Shown: positions 7,542 through 58,180, counted from the first letter of the stretch. The stretch: 64,000 nt of DNA from the human T2T-CHM13v2.0 reference genome, Homo sapiens (GCF_009914755.1 NC_060931.1); one strand, 5' to 3'. The notes: generated by a model from the letters alone, not told the origin. Translations and numbers: made by a program.

Positions 7542-9526
7542 ATTCATCAAGTCATACAATGCCCTTAAAATCTGGTCTCAACTATCCTTCTTTTTTCTAC
7601 TCCAGCACTGTATATTTTGTCACACTAAACTATTTTTAAGAAATTATATTGAATCACACGAACAACTGTATTTTGTTGGGGGGATTTTTGTTGGGTTTTT
7701 TTTGCTTCCAAGTTTTTCTCTTGTTATCTTCTGTGCCTGAATTACACTTCTGCACCTTACCTGGCAAAATTTTACCAAAGACCTTGTGCAAATTTCAGCT
7801 CTTCTTAAAACACTCCTGGTTCTACCCGGAAAAATTAATAGCTCCTTCTGAACTGTGTTCCTAAAGCCCTCCCACCGCCTTCCTATCCATTGATTTCATT
7901 ATGGCATAATTTGGGGTGCTTGCCTAAAATTGTAATTCCAGTAAGAGTAGACAGTGTTTTATCAATACTGAACCCTCAACACCTAGCACAAGATCTTGTA
8001 CTCGCAAGGACTTGTACATTTGCTAATGAAGTGAACAAATATTGCATTAATTTCAAATGTTTGCTGAACTGAATTTTTGAATGCTGTGTTGACCAAACTA
8101 CTAGCAGGGCAATGTGTTTCATTCTTGAAAAGTTGTACCTTTGCATTCCAAACACAACCTTGCCTGCTTCCCAGAGTTCCGAAACTAAAGTAAAACATCC
8201 AATTAATCAATCAATTACGCAACTGATAAAGCTAGAGAAGTACTCTAATCAAGCATAACTTATTTTCCTATCTGAGATGTTTTCCACATTTTGTATTTGC
8301 TGAAGCAGTGCAAAATGTTGCTGCTTAAAGACATTATGTGACAATCTGTTTTCATTCCTATGCTCTAAAAATTATGAATAGTAATTTTAATATTCTTTAT
8401 TATTTTTTATATTTTAAATCAGTGTTATTAGTTTTCCCATATTAATTTATTTTAATGACATATATGTAATTTCAAGGTTTGGAAAACTTTAGATAGCAGG
8501 TCAAATTCTTTTTAATTCAATCTGTTCAACTGAGGTCTTTATGGGCTTGGAGTAGATATTGCTTTAGGCTGTATATTAGTCAATAAGCTAGATAATAAAA
8601 AATGGAAGTATATTTTTCCATTTTAGAGTAATGATGAAAGTCACATAAAGACAATTTCCCAGGTAACTGAAATTAATATTCATTATTGCTAAAAAGTTTT
8701 TGTTTTTATTTTCATGATTGGGAGGAAAGCATTTCTTAATTGGGTTATTCATATTCTGGCCTCCTGAACTAGAAGTTCAGATAATTTGAATTTCTGAAAT
8801 AATTATCAGTCATAACACTGTGGTGTGATATAACCATGCCTTTAAAGCCTGTTACAGGGAATCTATGCTACAGATTGTAACAGCTATGCTTTTCTTATTT
8901 ATAACTGCTTTTTAACTTACTTTTAAAAATGTAGTTTCTTTCTATCAATGTGCCTGCTTCCAGTGCTGCCTCCTCCACCAGCTCTTCTTAGGCATTTTGA
9001 AACATATAACCATTGAGGGTATATATGATCCTGACATTAAAATAAATTTATTACAATTTTATTATTATTACTTAGTAGTATTGAACATTTACTGAGCTCT
9101 TCCTATTTGCCAAACACTGTTCTAAGTCCATTAGGTGTATAATCTCATTTGTCTTCACAAAGACTATGGGTTAAGGTAAATGGTAGAAGAGCAATAATCT
9201 CCTAGACAGATTAAATACTTTATGCAAAGGAAGCCCTGTGGTAAAGAGAGAGTTAGTATGAATAAACATGGAAACAAGTCCAAAAAAGCTGGAGTAAGAA
9301 GTGTCTTGGTGGAAATGGATAAAAGTGGGAATTAAAAGGTGTGCAGGGGCCAGATCTTTTAAATGCTCTGGTTCAACCTTACCTTTAGAAACATTCTGTT
9401 ATACCCATTGAGCAAAATAAAGCATCCTTTCTTCTTTGTTTCTTGAAAACATGACTTCTACTTTGAATGACATTTGGTTGTTTCTGTAATTTACCTTCAT
9501 TGGCTCTATTAATTTAACTCAAATTA

Positions 9527-9723
9527 AAACCCCATCTCTACTAAAAATACAAAAAATTAGCTGGGCGTGGTGGCAGGCGCCTGTAGTCCCAGCTACTCTG
9601 GAGGCTGAGGCAGGAGAATGGCATGAACCTGGGAGGCGGAGCTTGCAGTGAGCCGAGATTGCGCCACTGCACTCCAGCCTGGGTGACAGAGCGAGACTCT
9701 GTCTCAAAAAAAAAAAAAAAAAG
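9527..9723 (+). mobile_element. AluY 3' part only (end of left monomer, linker, right monomer, tail); left boundary of the block
   Basis: Starts abruptly at AAACCCCATCTCTACTAAAAATACAAAAAATTAG. AluY diagnostics: GAATGGCATGAACC and GGAGCTTGCAG. Confidence 0.9.
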
Positions 9724-10128
9724 AAATACATAAAATAAATTAGAAGGATTGGCAAAATAAGAAATATTTCACCTTGAGGTATATTTATATGGATATGTTA
9801 TTAATATACTGAAAAATCGTATAACATATTTAAAAATCTGATGTGTCTTGGTATAAATGGTATCAGTCAATTTTGGTTCAGAAATAACATTCTTGTCAAT
9901 TATGTCATCAATACCATGGACTCAGACCAGGTTTTGGCCATGGTCACTTGAAGTCTTCATGTCCACACTTAATTGCTTTAGTCTAATGTCTTTCTGAAAG
10001 CTTCTTGCAGGCAATTATAATCCCAGAGAGTTATGTCTTCAAGGAGCTTCATGGAAAGAATGAAGTCTGACAAGTACGGGTTTCTAATAACTTTGAGTTC
10101 ACACTATTGAACTAAATTTCCAAAACTC

Positions 10129-11212
10129 GGCCAGGCACAGTGGCTCAAGCCTGTAATCCCAGCACTCTGGGAGGCCGAGGTGGGCGGATCACCTGAGGTC
10201 GGGAGTTCGAGACCAGCCTGACCAACATGGAGAAAACCCGTCTCTACTAAAAAAAAAAAACACACACACAAAAAAATTAGCTGGGCGTGGTAGCATGTGC
10301 CTGTAATCCCAGCTACTCAGGAGTCTGAGGCAGGAGAATCGCTTAAACCCGGGAGGCGGAGGTTGCAGTGAGCTGAGATTCTGTCGTTGCACTCCAGCCT
10401 GGGCAACAAGAGTGAACCTCTGTCAAAAAAAAAAAAAAAAAAAAAAAAATTCCAAAACTCGAATGAAGAAACTGATGGGTTTGTGAAATTGCTAATACAG
10501 ATCACAGCAAGAATTAATTACAAGACTGAATGAACTGATGAAAAATAATTATTAATCTTTTTTTTTTTTTTTTTTTTGAGATAGAACCTCACTCTGTCGC
10601 CCAGGCTGGAGTGCAATGGCGTGATCTCGGCTCACTACAACCTCTGCCTGCCAGGTTCAAGAGATTCCTTTGCCTCAGCCTCCCAAGTAGCTGGGATTAC
10701 AGGTGCCTGCCACCATGCCCGGTTCATTTTTTTTTTTTTTTTTTTTTTTTTGAGACAGAGTTTCATTCTTGTTGCCCAGGTTGGAGTGCAATGGCGAGAT
10801 CTTGGCTCACTGCAACCTCTGCCTCCCAGGTTCAAGCAATTCTCCTGCCTCAGCCTCCCTAGTAGCTGGGATTACAGACATGTGCCACCACGCATGGCTA
10901 ATTTTATATTTTCAGTAGAGACAGGGTTTCTACATGTTGGTCAGGCTGGTCTCGAACTCCCGACCTCAGGTGATCTGCCTGCCTCGGCCTCCCAAAGTGC
11001 TGGGATTACAGGTGTGAGCCACCAAACCAGGCCTGAATCTTTTTTTTTTTTTTTTTTTTTTTTTTATGGCAGGGTCTTGGCTCCGTCACCCAGGCTGAAG
11101 TGCAGTGGTGTGATCATGGCTCACAGCAGCCTTGAATTCCTTAGCTCAATCGATCCTCCCACCTCAGCCTCCCAAAATGCTGTGATTACAGGTGCAAGCC
11201 ACTAGACCCAGC
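10129..11212. mobile_element. Alu cluster: + strand AluS 10129-10449, then tandem minus-strand Alus 10558-11212
   Basis: Alu consensus and poly-A/T tracts; AAATT(T)CCAAAACTC TSD around the first copy. Confidence 0.9.
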
Positions 11213-11410
11213 TGAATTATGGATTTTTAAGGCTGCTTTATGTCAAACATTGTGGGTTCTTTTAATATTGTTTTCCAGATTTAAGGAAACTTTTTTCTTT
11301 TAAGCTTTGTATAATTTATAGTAATTTGGTAAAGTACTTTTGAAAACAAAAACGAAAACATTTGCTTTTCCTCTCTACCTGAACCCTCCAGAATTTAGAA
11401 GCAATTTATG

Positions 11411-12203
11411 ATTTTTTTTTTATTATTATACTTTAAGTTCTAGGGTACATGTGCACAACGTGCAGGTTTGTTACATATGTATACATGTGCCATGTTGGTG
11501 TGCTGCACCCATTAACTCATCATTTACATTAGGTATATCTCCTAATGCTTTCCCTCCCCCCTCCCCCCACCCCACAACAGGCCCTGGTGTGTGATGTTCC
11601 CCTTCCTGTGTCCAAGTGTTCTCATTGTTCAATTCCCACCTGTAAGTGAGAACATGTGGTGTTTGGTTTTTTGTCCTTGCGATAGTTTGCCGAGAACGAT
11701 GGTTTCCAGTTTCATCCATGTCCCTACAAAGGACATGAACTCATCCTTTTTTATGGCTGCATAGTATTCCATGATGTATATGTGCCACATTTTCTTAATC
11801 CAGTCTATCATTGTTGGACATGTGGGTTGGTTCCAAGTCTTTGCTATTGTGAATAGTGCCGCAATAAACATACGTGTGCATGTGTCTTTACAGCAGCATG
11901 ATTTATAATCCTTTGGGTATATACCCAGTAATGGGATGGCTGGGTCAAATGGTAATTCTAGTTCTAGATCCCTGAGGAATTGCCACACTGACTTCCACAA
12001 TGGTTGAACTAGTTTACAGTCCCACCAACAGTGTAAAAGTGTTCCTCGTTCTCCACATCCTCTCCAGCACCTGTTGTTTCCTGACTTTTTAATGATCGCC
12101 ATTCTAACTGGTGTGAGATGGTATCTCATTGTGGTTTTGATTTGCATTTCTCTGATGGCCAGTGATGATGTGAGCATTTTTTCATGTGTCTGTTGGCTGC
12201 ATA
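11411..12203 (-). mobile_element. 5'-truncated L1PA (L1PA4-like) 3' end
   Basis: ORF 11629-12177 is the ORF2p C-terminus ([24 protein letters not shown]), followed by the 3'UTR and a poly-T tail at about 11411. Confidence 0.9.
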
Positions 12204-57290: not shown

Positions 57291-57386
57291 CTGGACTATG
57301 TTGACATGGAAATTCACCTCCCGTTATCCACAGCTCCTCTCCCTGCTCCAACTTAATGATGACGTTTGGCTTGGTGATATCATATC
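57291..57386 (-). pseudogene. KRAB-B box pseudo-exon: YDITKPNVIIKLEQGEELWITGGEFPCQHSP
   Basis: KLEQGEE.W motif and GTAAG donor. The in-frame 96-nt acceptor reads AA instead of AG. Confidence 0.85.
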
Positions 57387-57648
57387 TTGTTAATGGGAAA
57401 AGAAGAAGGACTTGGGCAAGTTGCTCGGCTTCAGAATCTCTGAAGTACAAGATGTTGCCACCTCATAAGCTGCATAACAGAAATGCTCCATTTTTTACCT
57501 TATCAAAGATAGAACCTTTCAATGAAGAATAATATAAACACTGCAGCTAGTGCCCACAAGGAATTAAGTGGTGTTGTCACTTATTTCTTCAAACTCAAGC
57601 ATAAAACCCCATTCAACTGAGAGCATTCAGAAAGCAAGCTATCCTCAC

Positions 57649-57775
57649 CCAAGGAAACTAGATGGCTGTAGTTCTCCAACATCACATCCCCGTATGTTAT
57701 CTTCTCATCAGGGTCCAGTTGCCGCCACTCCTCCTGGGTGAAATCCACAGCCACATCTTTGAATGACACTGGCCC
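57649..57775 (-). pseudogene. KRAB-A box exon (127 nt): [45 protein letters not shown]12/PMS2-pseudogene-family type
   Basis: Canonical KRAB-A motif and length; ccattacAG acceptor and GTGAG donor. No ATG exon or zinc-finger exon is visible in the window. Confidence 0.9.
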
Positions 57776-58066
57776 CTGTAATGGCAACATGATCAGAATT
57801 GGGAGATATGGAAAAGGGATAGGGGGATAACATTTTACAAAGCTCACTGGTGAAGTTAACCATGAACATCGTATACCTTATTTTATGTTACAGATTATGG
57901 AAGGGAAATCATATTGGAAACACATATCCTTTGGGGTCCTTTATATATATACAAAAATAAAAACCCAAAACACCCACCTCGGCCTCCCAAAGTGCTGGGA
58001 TTACAGCAATGAACCACTGCACCCGGCCAAAAAATTTAAAAATTTTAAAAATAAAATAAAAAATAA

Positions 58067-58180
58067 GGCCAGGCACGGTGGCTCATGCCTGTAATCCCAG
58101 CTCTTTGGGAGGCTGAGGCAGGCGGATCACGAGGTCAGGAGTTTGAGACCATCCTGGCTAACACGGTGAAACCCCATCTC
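58067..58180 (+). mobile_element. AluY 5' part only (left monomer); right boundary of the block
   Basis: GGATCACGAGGTC and ACCATCCTGGCTAACACGGTG are AluY diagnostics; the element stops abruptly at GAAACCCCATCTC. Confidence 0.9.

What the first reader, a model, noticed from the sequence alone, without database searches (positions are those of the whole stretch)
9511..58180. The 48.7-kb POMZP3 block is bounded by two complementary AluY halves in swapped order, suggesting integration of a circle
Seen: the block starts at 9527 with an AluY lacking most of its left monomer and ends at 58180 with an AluY that is only that left monomer. Both are on the + strand, both carry AluY diagnostics, and both share AAACCCCATCTC (9527-9538 and 58169-58180), including the same CG>CA change. 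Joining 58180 to 9539 rebuilds one full AluY. Alu density and GC content change abruptly at these points. Established: swapped A-B/B-A order between donor and copy is the recognised signature of duplication through a circular DNA intermediate. Inference: the unit was circular, or copied by Alu-guided template switching, then opened in this Alu and inserted into AT-rich DNA. The halves could be one copy or an Alu-Alu recombinant of two. I cannot tell whether this has already been described for this locus.
Basis: partly seen in the sequence, partly recalled or inferred. Interest (0 to 1): 0.85.

Follow-up and report, generated by a model that had tools for sequence, protein, structure and literature searches.

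The report
One broken Alu bounds POMZP3 block
The POMZP3 fusion-gene block really is bounded by the two halves of one Alu in swapped order, but it sits inside rearranged DNA copied from chromosome 1, so it arose in a complex multi-break event and not by a simple circle insertion.

Summary
The Alu right part at 9527 and the Alu left part ending at 58180 are the two sides of one break in a single Alu. That Alu lies intact, with the same flanks, in the ZP3-DTX2 interval (C7:77.738 Mb) and in a second paralog (C7:78.227 Mb). The block is a circular permutation of a 24.8-kb ZP3-locus segment. It is closed head-to-tail by a chimeric Alu (about 25385-25411) and carries a 26.7-kb POM121C-type piece joined by microhomology.

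The AT-rich flanks are not a native target. They are pieces of a 357-kb duplicon from chromosome 1p31. The block's two flanks are the tail and the head of one 49.4-kb chr1 stretch. That stretch is itself cut with an 11-bp overlap, and it lies inverted in a 19-bp duplicated site inside an L1, with 4.13 kb missing. Joints show 1-4-nt microhomology, and a 22-nt filler repeats another breakpoint.

The best reading is one multi-break rearrangement with a circular or equivalent head-to-tail intermediate. A physical circle is not proven. Order-flipped human duplications are a published class (Chicote 2020). I could not read their locus table.

The parts
1..9504 (-). Tail of the inverted chr1p31-derived stretch (C1:82982292 down to 82972781). 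The stretch starts outside the window at C7:77832260 (= C1:83022071).
   Evidence: 98% identity over query 1-9504; homology ends at 9504. C7:77832260-77839991 = C1:83022071-83014328, 99%.
9505..9526 (.). 22-nt filler between the chr1 piece and the Alu right part. Bases 9511-9523 repeat the 13-mer found at 58287-58299, which is another breakpoint of the same rearrangement.
   Evidence: In one search, 44 of 20,000 shuffles of the filler reach a 13-nt match to the neighbourhoods of the other 8 junctions, and 491 of 20,000 reach 11 nt.
9527..9722 (+). Right part and A-tail of the broken Alu. Bases 9527-9538 are the first copy of the 12-bp overlap.
9527..25411 (-). Seg1: the ZP3-type 3' exons plus about 7.5 kb downstream. 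It equals C7:77738280 down to about 77722181.
   Evidence: 96.1-98.5% identity; 0.62% substitutions over 14.1 kb and 1.39% in the first 1.2 kb.
25275..25570 (+). J1: a chimeric Alu that closes the ZP3-locus segment head to tail. The 5' part comes from the Alu in the ZP3 intron. The 3' part comes from the Alu 24.8 kb away on the DTX2 side. The crossover lies in an identical 27-nt stretch at about 25385-25411.
   Evidence: three-way alignment. (211-bp overlap of the two donor alignments).
25412..31294 (-). Seg2: the DTX2-side part of the ZP3-DTX2 interval (C7:~77746900 down to 77740945). It ends inside an Alu, after GGCGAAACC.
   Evidence: 1.34% substitutions.
31295..57973 (-). POM121C-type piece: intron, 5' exons, promoter and upstream DNA. 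It enters by joint J2 (CCAC microhomology) and leaves by joint J4 (CAC microhomology). At about 56986-56995 it skips 8.9 kb that the POM121C locus holds (10.2 kb in the POM121 locus).
   Evidence: 97% to C7:76743949-76752794, and 99% for 56995-57973; 98.0% to C7:76728500-76731500..
57974..58180 (-). s: a 207-bp piece of the ZP3-DTX2 interval that in the donors lies directly before Seg1. Bases 58068-58180 are the Alu left part, and 58169-58180 are the second copy of the 12-bp overlap.
58178..58297 (-). A: a 120-bp chr1 piece (C1:83022180 down to 83022061). It is the head of the same chr1 stretch whose tail ends at 9504. CTC microhomology joins it to the Alu. Bases 58287-58297 repeat the 11 nt that start the stretch at C7:77832261-71.
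   Evidence: 98.3% over 120 bp.. The genome-wide search missed this match.
58297..64000 (+). Fg: the chr1 duplicon in + orientation, from C1:83026534 onward, starting inside L1 ORF2. Bases 58297-58317 are a mutated copy of the 19 nt that end the 243-bp chr1 piece b at C7:77832016-77832258. Piece b lies outside the window, next to the SPDYE16-side duplicon.
   Evidence: the duplicon runs on to C1:83330058 = C7:78225171.

Best explanation
Shown:
- The two Alu pieces are the two sides of one break in one Alu. The two sides overlap by 9-12 nt, and the Alu lies intact in the ZP3-DTX2 interval.
- The 48,654-bp block is one turn of a head-to-tail form of a 24.8-kb ZP3-locus segment (C7:77722181-77747025).
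- The turn is closed by recombination or annealing between two direct Alus (J1).
- About 2.4 kb of the segment is replaced by a 26.7-kb POM121C-type piece, joined at two microhomology joints.
- J1 and J2 together place the POM121 5' exons upstream of ZP3 exons 5-8. This is what makes the POMZP3 gene.
- The opened unit is joined on both sides to the two ends of a 49.4-kb stretch of a 357-kb chr1p31-derived duplicon.
- The block plus that stretch form a 98-kb unit. The unit is itself permuted (11-nt overlap) and lies in a 19-nt duplicated site in an L1 of the same duplicon. 4.13 kb is lost, and a SPDYE16-side duplicon has been cut.

Inferred:
- All of these joints were made in one multi-break germline event, or in a very tight series.
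- They were repaired by microhomology-mediated joining or copying, with fill-in of staggered ends and one templated filler.
- The ZP3/POM121 unit entered as a circle, or as a topologically equivalent head-to-tail intermediate, opened in the Alu.
For: - Intact donor Alu with both flanks, seen in 2 of 2 paralogs examined.
- A private T variant shared with both donors. It occurs in 1 of 26 window Alus.
- J1 is a chimeric Alu with the polarity expected for circle or tandem closure.
- J2, J4, jE and the Alu/chr1 joint each have 2-4-nt microhomology and no long homology.
- The block's flanks are the tail (C1:82972781) and head (C1:83022180) of one chr1 stretch in the same orientation.
- Three cut sites each have both sides kept, with short overlaps: Alu 12 nt, chr1 83022061-71 11 nt, chr1 83026534-52 19 nt.
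- The filler holds a 13-mer that otherwise exists only at the A/Fg joint; 44 of 20,000 shuffles do as well. This links the two ends of the block in time.
- The 19-nt copy at the head of Fg carries a cluster of changes (GGAAG to GATGGGG) within 10 nt of the joint.
- Substitution divergence from the donors is in the same low range for all three sources. ZP3 parts: 0.62-1.39%. chr1 parts: 0.53-1.71%. POM121C part: 0.61%.
- The unique 298 bp of the lost 4.13 kb exists nowhere else in the genome.
- No other locus spans J2 or J4.
Against: - No outgroup or polymorphic intermediate could be examined, so a single event is inference only.
- Divergence values are heterogeneous. For example, Seg1 is 0.62% against 1.34-1.39% for its neighbours, and the 207-bp piece s is 3.4% (7 of 207). 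This may mean gene conversion or different ages.
- Nothing in the sequence requires a covalently closed circle. The same order arises from a tandem duplicate or from outward copying closed by Alu annealing.
- The closure is by Alu homology. The published circle-type duplications showed no homology at closure (PMC7450558, Results).
- The two chr1 overlaps can also be read as the two joints of a plain 4.49-kb inversion with staggered breaks. That would need no circle for that part.
- Collinearity of the middle 32 kb of the chr1 stretch rests on length agreement only (32,000 against 32,036 bp).
Confidence: 0.5

Rival explanations
1. No circle was involved. The structure arose by serial template switching (MMBIR/FoSTeS type) from the intact donors on chr1, in the ZP3-DTX2 interval and in the POM121C locus. 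Two synapsed ends enter each template at the same point and copy outward in opposite directions. They are finally joined by annealing of the copied direct Alus (J1).
For: - All three donor loci are intact.
- The nested pattern of returns to the entry points occurs at three loci, with 11-19-nt re-copying.
- The short stretches of 120, 207 and 243 bp at the joints look like templated insertions.
- The filler matches the A/Fg joint in the orientation expected if one nascent end briefly used the other as template.
- A cluster of changes lies next to one joint.
- PMC7450558 (Discussion) also treats replicative interaction as compatible with such scars.
Against: - If the chr1 duplicon was already on chr7, its original upstream part should remain as an inverted duplicate. 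Only one copy exists.
- The joint between the SPDYE16-side duplicon and chr1 83026310, only 243 bp from the 19-nt site, then needs a further switch or a deletion.
- Copying of about 450 kb with roughly 10 switches is extreme.
Confidence: 0.28
2. The history was stepwise. A 48.65-kb circle opened in the Alu and inserted simply. Later, independent inversions and deletions of the surrounding chr1 duplicon separated the flanks.
For: - The order flip and the 12-nt overlap.
- The joints b/Fc and A/Fg are exactly those of a 4.49-kb inversion between chr1 83022061-71 and 83026534-52, with staggered breaks.
Against: - Every stepwise path I could write needs a later break to fall exactly on an older joint. 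The older joint is either the end of the Alu left part or chr1 82972781.
- The filler at the left joint copies a 13-mer that exists only at the A/Fg joint, which ties the joints together.
Confidence: 0.1
3. A linear third copy of the ZP3/POM121 composite and the chr1 duplicon were shattered and religated in random order (chromothripsis-like). The swapped order is then chance.
For: - At least 9 joints are clustered in three source regions.
- Small fragments and lost pieces of 2.4, 4.1 and 7.6 kb.
- Each chr1 piece is single-copy on chr7.
Against: - Both pairs of split pieces keep the same relative orientation, and their order closes perfect cycles.
- Blunt religation does not give overlaps of 11, 12 and 19 nt.
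- J1 is a homologous Alu joint.
Confidence: 0.1
4. The two truncated Alus are unrelated, and their complementarity is chance.
For: The shared 12-mer is common: 10 of 26 window Alus carry it.
Against: Both halves, together with non-Alu flanking sequence, map to one intact Alu in two paralogs and share its private variant.
Confidence: 0.01

Closest known systems
Circular-DNA-mediated segmental duplication pairs (Chicote et al. 2020, BMC Genomics, PMC7450558; I read the Results, the Discussion and the supplementary methods)
   Same: - The order flip is the same: A-B/C-D in the donor becomes B-A/D-C in the copy, in one orientation.
- The ends of the copy are adjacent in the donor.
- The ends of the donor segment are fused inside the copy.
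- Breakpoints lie in interspersed repeats.
- The opening and insertion points show micro-duplications and microhomology.
   Different: - Closure here is by Alu-Alu homology. They report no homology at closure.
- The acceptor flanks here are not contiguous in the source.
- The unit carries a second donor (POM121C type).
- The structure is nested in a second permuted unit.
- Their locus tables (S1 and S4, .xls) and Figure S1 (.ppt) could not be read, so I cannot say whether this locus is one of their 24 pairs. None of the 16 sizes and distances in their Table 1 fits 24.8 kb at about 0.14 Mb.
Serial translocation by circular intermediates at cattle KIT (colour sidedness). I know this only from the account in the PMC7450558 Discussion and from the search listing.
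   Same: The order is swapped. There are microhomology and micro-duplication scars. A second step carries the first insert together with its flanking DNA, which resembles the 98-kb unit here (block plus chr1 stretch).
   Different: In cattle there are two separate events at two chromosomes, with living intermediates. Here no intermediate is known, and the second level lies 4.4 kb from its own source.
Alu-Alu mediated rearrangement, and the enrichment of Alus at segmental-duplication junctions (recalled from the literature; no call supports this)
   Same: J1 is a classical chimeric Alu. Three further breaks (both block ends and J2) lie in Alus, all within about 40 nt of the middle A-rich linker.
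   Different: The block ends and J2 are not Alu-Alu joints. The partner sequence in each case is non-Alu DNA, joined with 3-4-nt microhomology.
Replicative complex genomic rearrangements (MMBIR/FoSTeS, chromoanasynthesis), as discussed in PMC7450558; the details are recalled
   Same: There are many joints with microhomology, short templated stretches and a filler, copy-number gain with intact donors, and changes clustered near one joint.
   Different: The pieces on chr7 are single-copy and not duplicated in place. The nested return to entry points is not a described hallmark.
Inversions with staggered breaks that leave short inverted duplications (a Drosophila model; recalled, no call supports this)
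   Same: The 11-nt and 19-nt chr1 overlaps fit the two joints of a 4.49-kb inversion.
   Different: This model cannot explain the direct 12-nt Alu overlap or the swapped order of the ZP3 pieces.

Membership tests
Circular-intermediate segmental duplication (order-flip class) | Donor order A-B/C-D appears as B-A/D-C in the copy, in one orientation | tested here: met
   window 9527-25497 = C7:77738280 down to 77722181, followed by 25287-31294 = C7:77747025 down to 77740945. Window 57974-58180 = the donor stretch just above 77738280.
Circular-intermediate segmental duplication (order-flip class) | The two ends of the copy are adjacent in the donor (a single opening point) | tested here: met
   The Alu is intact in 2 of 2 paralogs, and the two ends overlap by 12 nt.
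Circular-intermediate segmental duplication (order-flip class) | The ends of the donor segment are fused inside the copy (closing junction) | tested here: met
   J1 is a chimeric Alu.
Circular-intermediate segmental duplication (order-flip class) | The acceptor flanks are contiguous before the insertion | tested here: not met
   On the chr1 source the flanks are 82972781 and 83022180. They are 49.4 kb apart and in swapped order. The true orthologous empty site in an outgroup could not be tested.
Circular-intermediate segmental duplication (order-flip class) | No homology at the closing junction (as reported for the published set) | tested here: not met
   The crossover lies in a 27-nt identical stretch of two direct Alus.
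Circular-intermediate segmental duplication (order-flip class) | A covalently closed circle existed | not testable with these tools
   Sequence topology cannot tell a circle from a tandem copy or from outward copying.
Alu-Alu recombination product | Chimeric Alu with each half matching a different parental Alu | tested here: met
   Met for J1 only. Not met for the block ends, J2 or J4.
Replicative complex rearrangement (MMBIR/FoSTeS type) | Multiple joints with microhomology, together with templated insertions | tested here: met
   Microhomologies: CT, CTC, CCAC, CAC. Filler 13-mer: 44 of 20,000 shuffles match as well.
Replicative complex rearrangement (MMBIR/FoSTeS type) | All joints formed in one replication-based event | not testable with these tools
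   This needs outgroup or population haplotypes.
L1/TPRT-mediated insertion with target-site duplication | The short direct repeat belongs to the target and flanks an insert ending in poly(A) | tested here: not met
   The 12-mer is continuous with Alu sequence inside the block on both sides. There is no poly(A) at either joint. The L1 at 58297-60274 is part of the chr1 duplicon.

The most novel reading that the evidence does not exclude
POMZP3, a primate fusion gene, was assembled in a single germline chromoanasynthesis-like event. That event stitched at least ten stretches from three loci (chr1p31, the ZP3-DTX2 interval and the POM121C locus). Its two ends entered each template at the same point and copied outward. 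If so, the 'circle signature' of order-flipped duplications can arise without any circle.
Probability: 0.25. Interest if true: 0.75.

Novelty: new member of a known kind. Interest (0 to 1): 0.58.

Why it matters
This gives a nucleotide-level account of how a primate-specific fusion gene was built. Which joints create the POM121-to-ZP3 exon order is now known, namely J1 and J2.

It adds a well-resolved case to the small published class of order-flipped human duplications. The case has three unusual features:
- The unit is closed by Alu-Alu homology.
- It combines two donors in one unit.
- It is nested in a second permuted unit from another chromosome.

It also shows that the swapped-halves signature recurs at two non-Alu breakpoints of the same rearrangement. 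This cautions against reading that signature as proof of a circle.

Finally, the map gives precise junction sequences that can be looked up in ape telomere-to-telomere assemblies and in human pangenomes to date and order the steps.

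Tried and rejected
1. Chr1 as a simple empty site. The chr1 sequence past 82972781 does not continue into the window. The right flank maps 53.7 kb away on the other strand. Rejected.

2. The 13-mer at 9511-9523 and 58287-58299 as a target-site duplication of the block, or of the L1. 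The L1 has no matching repeat after its A-tail, and the L1 is part of the chr1 duplicon. The 13-mer is the chr1 breakpoint word plus 2 nt. Rejected as a target-site duplication and kept as a templated filler.

3. The reading that 58181-58296 is unique. The genome search found only the window itself. A local BLAST then showed the stretch is chr1 83022180-83022061, inverted.

4. A 98-kb inversion model that would restore collinearity of the SPDYE16-side duplicon with the POM121C-type piece. In both the POM121 and POM121C loci these lie 7.6 kb apart. It would also restore collinearity of the chr1 duplicon. Rejected as sufficient, because it cannot place the 207-bp piece s, which abuts Seg1.

5. 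A plain inversion with staggered breaks. It explains the two chr1 overlaps but not the Alu overlap.

6. J4 as an Alu-Alu joint. There is no Alu at that point in the POM121C or POM121 loci. Rejected.

7. POM121C appeared to be absent for window 31000-41000. A fetched 3-kb piece shows 98.0% identity, so the search had simply not scored it.

9. Literature. I ran four searches: 'POMZP3' (88 papers, 40 listed), 'POMZP3' with 'segmental duplication' (2 papers), 'POM121' with 'ZP3' and 'duplication' (3 papers), and 'POM-ZP3' (3 papers). None gave a description of the locus structure. Kipersztok 1995 was seen only as a citation. Antonell 2005 is not held.

Full report
**1. The observation**

The window shows an Alu right part from 9527 to its A-tail at about 9722. 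It is preceded by non-Alu, AT-rich DNA. An Alu left part runs from 58068 to 58180 and is followed by non-Alu DNA. Both are on the + strand, and both hold AAACCCCATCTC at the cut.

That word alone proves little. It occurs 10 times in the window. It is the commonest form of the site among the window's Alus: 10 of 26, against 8 CG, 6 TG and 2 other forms.

GC content changes at both ends of the block.

**2. One Alu, broken once**

The window's own genome can be searched. Window 9505-10500 matches two chr7 paralogs, and both alignments start exactly at 9527. The paralogs are C7:77737301-77738280 (96%) and C7:78225872-78226841 (97%).

Reading those loci shows a full-length Alu at that place. The sequence before it is the same as window 57974-58180, and the sequence after it is the same as window 9527 onward.

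The left half carries a private T, found in 1 of 26 comparable window Alus. Both donors share it.

So joining 58180 to 9539 does rebuild one real Alu. The donors are not truncated, and donor homology does not run into the flanks. Because CTC at 58178-58180 could also be read as chr1 sequence, the overlap is 9-12 nt.

**3. Map of the block**

Local BLAST against 172 kb of fetched upstream chr7 sequence and 30 kb of the second paralog gave the following:
- Window 9527-25497 equals C7:77738280 down to 77722181. This is the ZP3-type exons plus their downstream DNA.
- Window 25287-31294 equals C7:77747025 down to 77740945.

The 211-bp overlap of these two alignments is a chimeric Alu. Its 5' part comes from the ZP3-intron Alu, and its 3' part comes from the Alu 24.8 kb away on the DTX2 side. 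The crossover lies in a 27-nt identical stretch.

At 31294/31295 an Alu of the interval is cut after GGCGAAACC and joined to POM121-type intron DNA, with CCAC microhomology.

Window 31295-57973 is POM121C-type:
- It is 98.0% identical to C7:76728500-76731500.
- It is 97% identical to C7:76743949-76752794.
- Window 56995-57973 is 99% identical to C7:76761677-76762653.
- An 8.9-kb stretch present in the POM121C locus is skipped. The equivalent stretch in the POM121 locus is 10.2 kb.

At 57973/57974 this piece is joined to an antisense Alu of the ZP3-DTX2 interval, with CAC microhomology. Neither POM121 locus has an Alu at that point. The 207 bp that follow run up to the broken Alu.

Relative to the donor, the ZP3 segment is therefore circularly permuted. 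About 2.4 kb of it is replaced by the POM121C-type piece. On the minus strand the order is POM121 exons, J2, J1, then ZP3 exons 5-8. These joints create the fusion gene that the hub annotation lists.

**4. The flanks**

- Window 1-9504 is 98% identical to C1:82982292-82972781 on the minus strand.
- This chr1 stretch begins outside the window at C7:77832260, which equals C1:83022071.
- Window 60275-64000 is 98% identical to C1:83028509-83032234 on the plus strand. With the L1 in front of it, the match starts at C1:83026534, which equals window 58297.
- The 116 nt between the Alu and that L1 had no genome-wide hit. It is in fact C1:83022180-83022061, inverted, at 98.3%.
- Left of the inverted stretch lies a 243-bp piece, C1:83026310-83026552 in plus orientation. 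It is joined by CT microhomology to a SPDYE16-side duplicon whose paralog continues past the joint.
- C1:83022181-83026309 (4.13 kb) is missing. Its 298 unique bases occur nowhere else in the genome, and the rest is the 5' part of a full-length L1.
- The chr1 duplicon continues to C1:83330058, which equals C7:78225171. There the second ZP3-DTX2 paralog begins.

**5. What the anatomy says**

The order on chr7 is as follows:
- the SPDYE16-side duplicon
- b (chr1 +, 243 bp)
- Fc (chr1 -, 49.3 kb)
- the filler (22 nt)
- the block
- A (chr1 -, 120 bp)
- Fg (chr1 +, about 300 kb)

Three sites have both of their sides kept but joined to other partners, with short overlaps. They are the Alu (12 nt), chr1 83022061-71 (11 nt) and chr1 83026534-52 (19 nt).

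The block's two neighbours are the tail and the head of one chr1 stretch. Block plus stretch therefore form a 98-kb permuted unit, which sits in the 19-nt duplicated site.

The filler contains a 13-mer that otherwise exists only at the A/Fg joint. Only 44 of 20,000 shuffles match as well.

The 19-nt copy at Fg has a cluster of changes next to the joint.

**6. Ages**

In 5,760 aligned sites of Seg2, the window is the odd one out at 64 sites. The ZP3 locus is odd at 14 and the second paralog at 12. The two paralogs are therefore sisters, and the block is older than their split.

Substitution divergence from the donors is as follows:
- ZP3 parts: 0.62-1.39%.
- The 207-bp piece s: 3.4% (7 of 207).
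- chr1 pieces: 0.53-1.71%.
- POM121C-type promoter part: 0.61%.

These values are compatible with one epoch but do not prove it. The low values in genic parts may reflect gene conversion.

**7. Mechanism**

I commit to the following reading. There was one multi-break rearrangement, repaired by microhomology-mediated joining or copying. In it, the ZP3/POM121C unit had a head-to-tail topology, closed by the Alu chimera and opened in the Alu of the interval.

I put a covalently closed circle at about 40-45%. Circle-free outward template switching from the intact donors is about 28%. Stepwise circle insertion followed by later inversions is about 10%. Random religation after shattering is about 10%.

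The stepwise paths I could write all need a later break to fall exactly on an older joint. The replicative path has trouble with the single-copy state of the chr1 pieces on chr7 and with the joint only 243 bp from the 19-nt site.

**8. Known work**

Chicote et al. 2020 (PMC7450558; I read the Results, the Discussion and the supplementary methods) describe 24 human duplication pairs with exactly this order flip. They propose circular intermediates, citing the cattle KIT case. They found no homology at closure and small indels or microhomology elsewhere. Their locus tables are .xls files that I could not read.

Franks et al. 2016 (PMC4888837; passages read) and Gupta 2021 (PMC7928326; passages read) only cite Kipersztok 1995 for the POM-ZP3 transcript.

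Four searches found no description of the fine structure of this locus.

**9. Verdict**

- The case is a new, unusually well-resolved and nested member of a known class.

Noticed in passing
window 9527-9538, 58169-58180, 58287-58297, 58297-58317; C7:77832240-77832271: All three short overlaps begin with AA or AAA preceded by G (G|AAACCCC, G|AATTTAAC, G|AAAAGAG), and they are 11-19 nt long. That is the size range of L1-type target-site duplications (recalled). With only three cases this is a lead, not a result.
   Followed up: no
window 9527, 25385-25411, 31294, 58180: Four breaks or crossovers lie within about 40 nt of the same place in four different Alus: the end of the left monomer and the A-rich linker. 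These are both block ends, J2 and the J1 crossover.
   Followed up: partly
window 11100-25250 against 9539-10700 and 25520-31290: The part carrying the ZP3-type exons differs from the ZP3 locus by 0.62%, while the adjacent non-genic parts differ by 1.34-1.39%. This suggests gene conversion between ZP3 and POMZP3.
   Followed up: no
C7:78225171-78313574 (L038-L040, L048): A second, younger direct copy of the ZP3-downstream/DTX2 region starts right where the chr1 duplicon ends. It differs from the first copy at 26 of 5,760 compared sites, whereas the block differs from the first copy at 78 of those sites. After it comes yet another chr7 duplicon.
   Followed up: partly
C1:83022479-83028508 (L041): The chr1 source holds a full-length young L1. 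Two of the chr1 breakpoints and the 243-bp piece b lie inside it. The window keeps only its 3' 1.98 kb (58297-60274).
   Followed up: partly
window 56986-56995: An 8.9-kb stretch present in the POM121C locus (10.2 kb in the POM121 locus) is skipped here. The skip runs between an Alu body and the A-rich tail of another Alu. I did not determine whether this is part of the same event or a later deletion.
   Followed up: partly
window 31000-41000 and 58181-58296: The own-genome search missed two true matches: the POM121C locus at 98% (found) and the 120-bp chr1 piece (found). Absence in that search is therefore weak evidence.
   Followed up: yes
window 32839-34904 and upstream to C7:77828574: The annotated lncRNA LINC03009 spans from the SPDYE16-side duplicon across the chr1 stretch and the block's left joints to the POM121-type promoter region. 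Its exons come from different duplicons.
   Followed up: no
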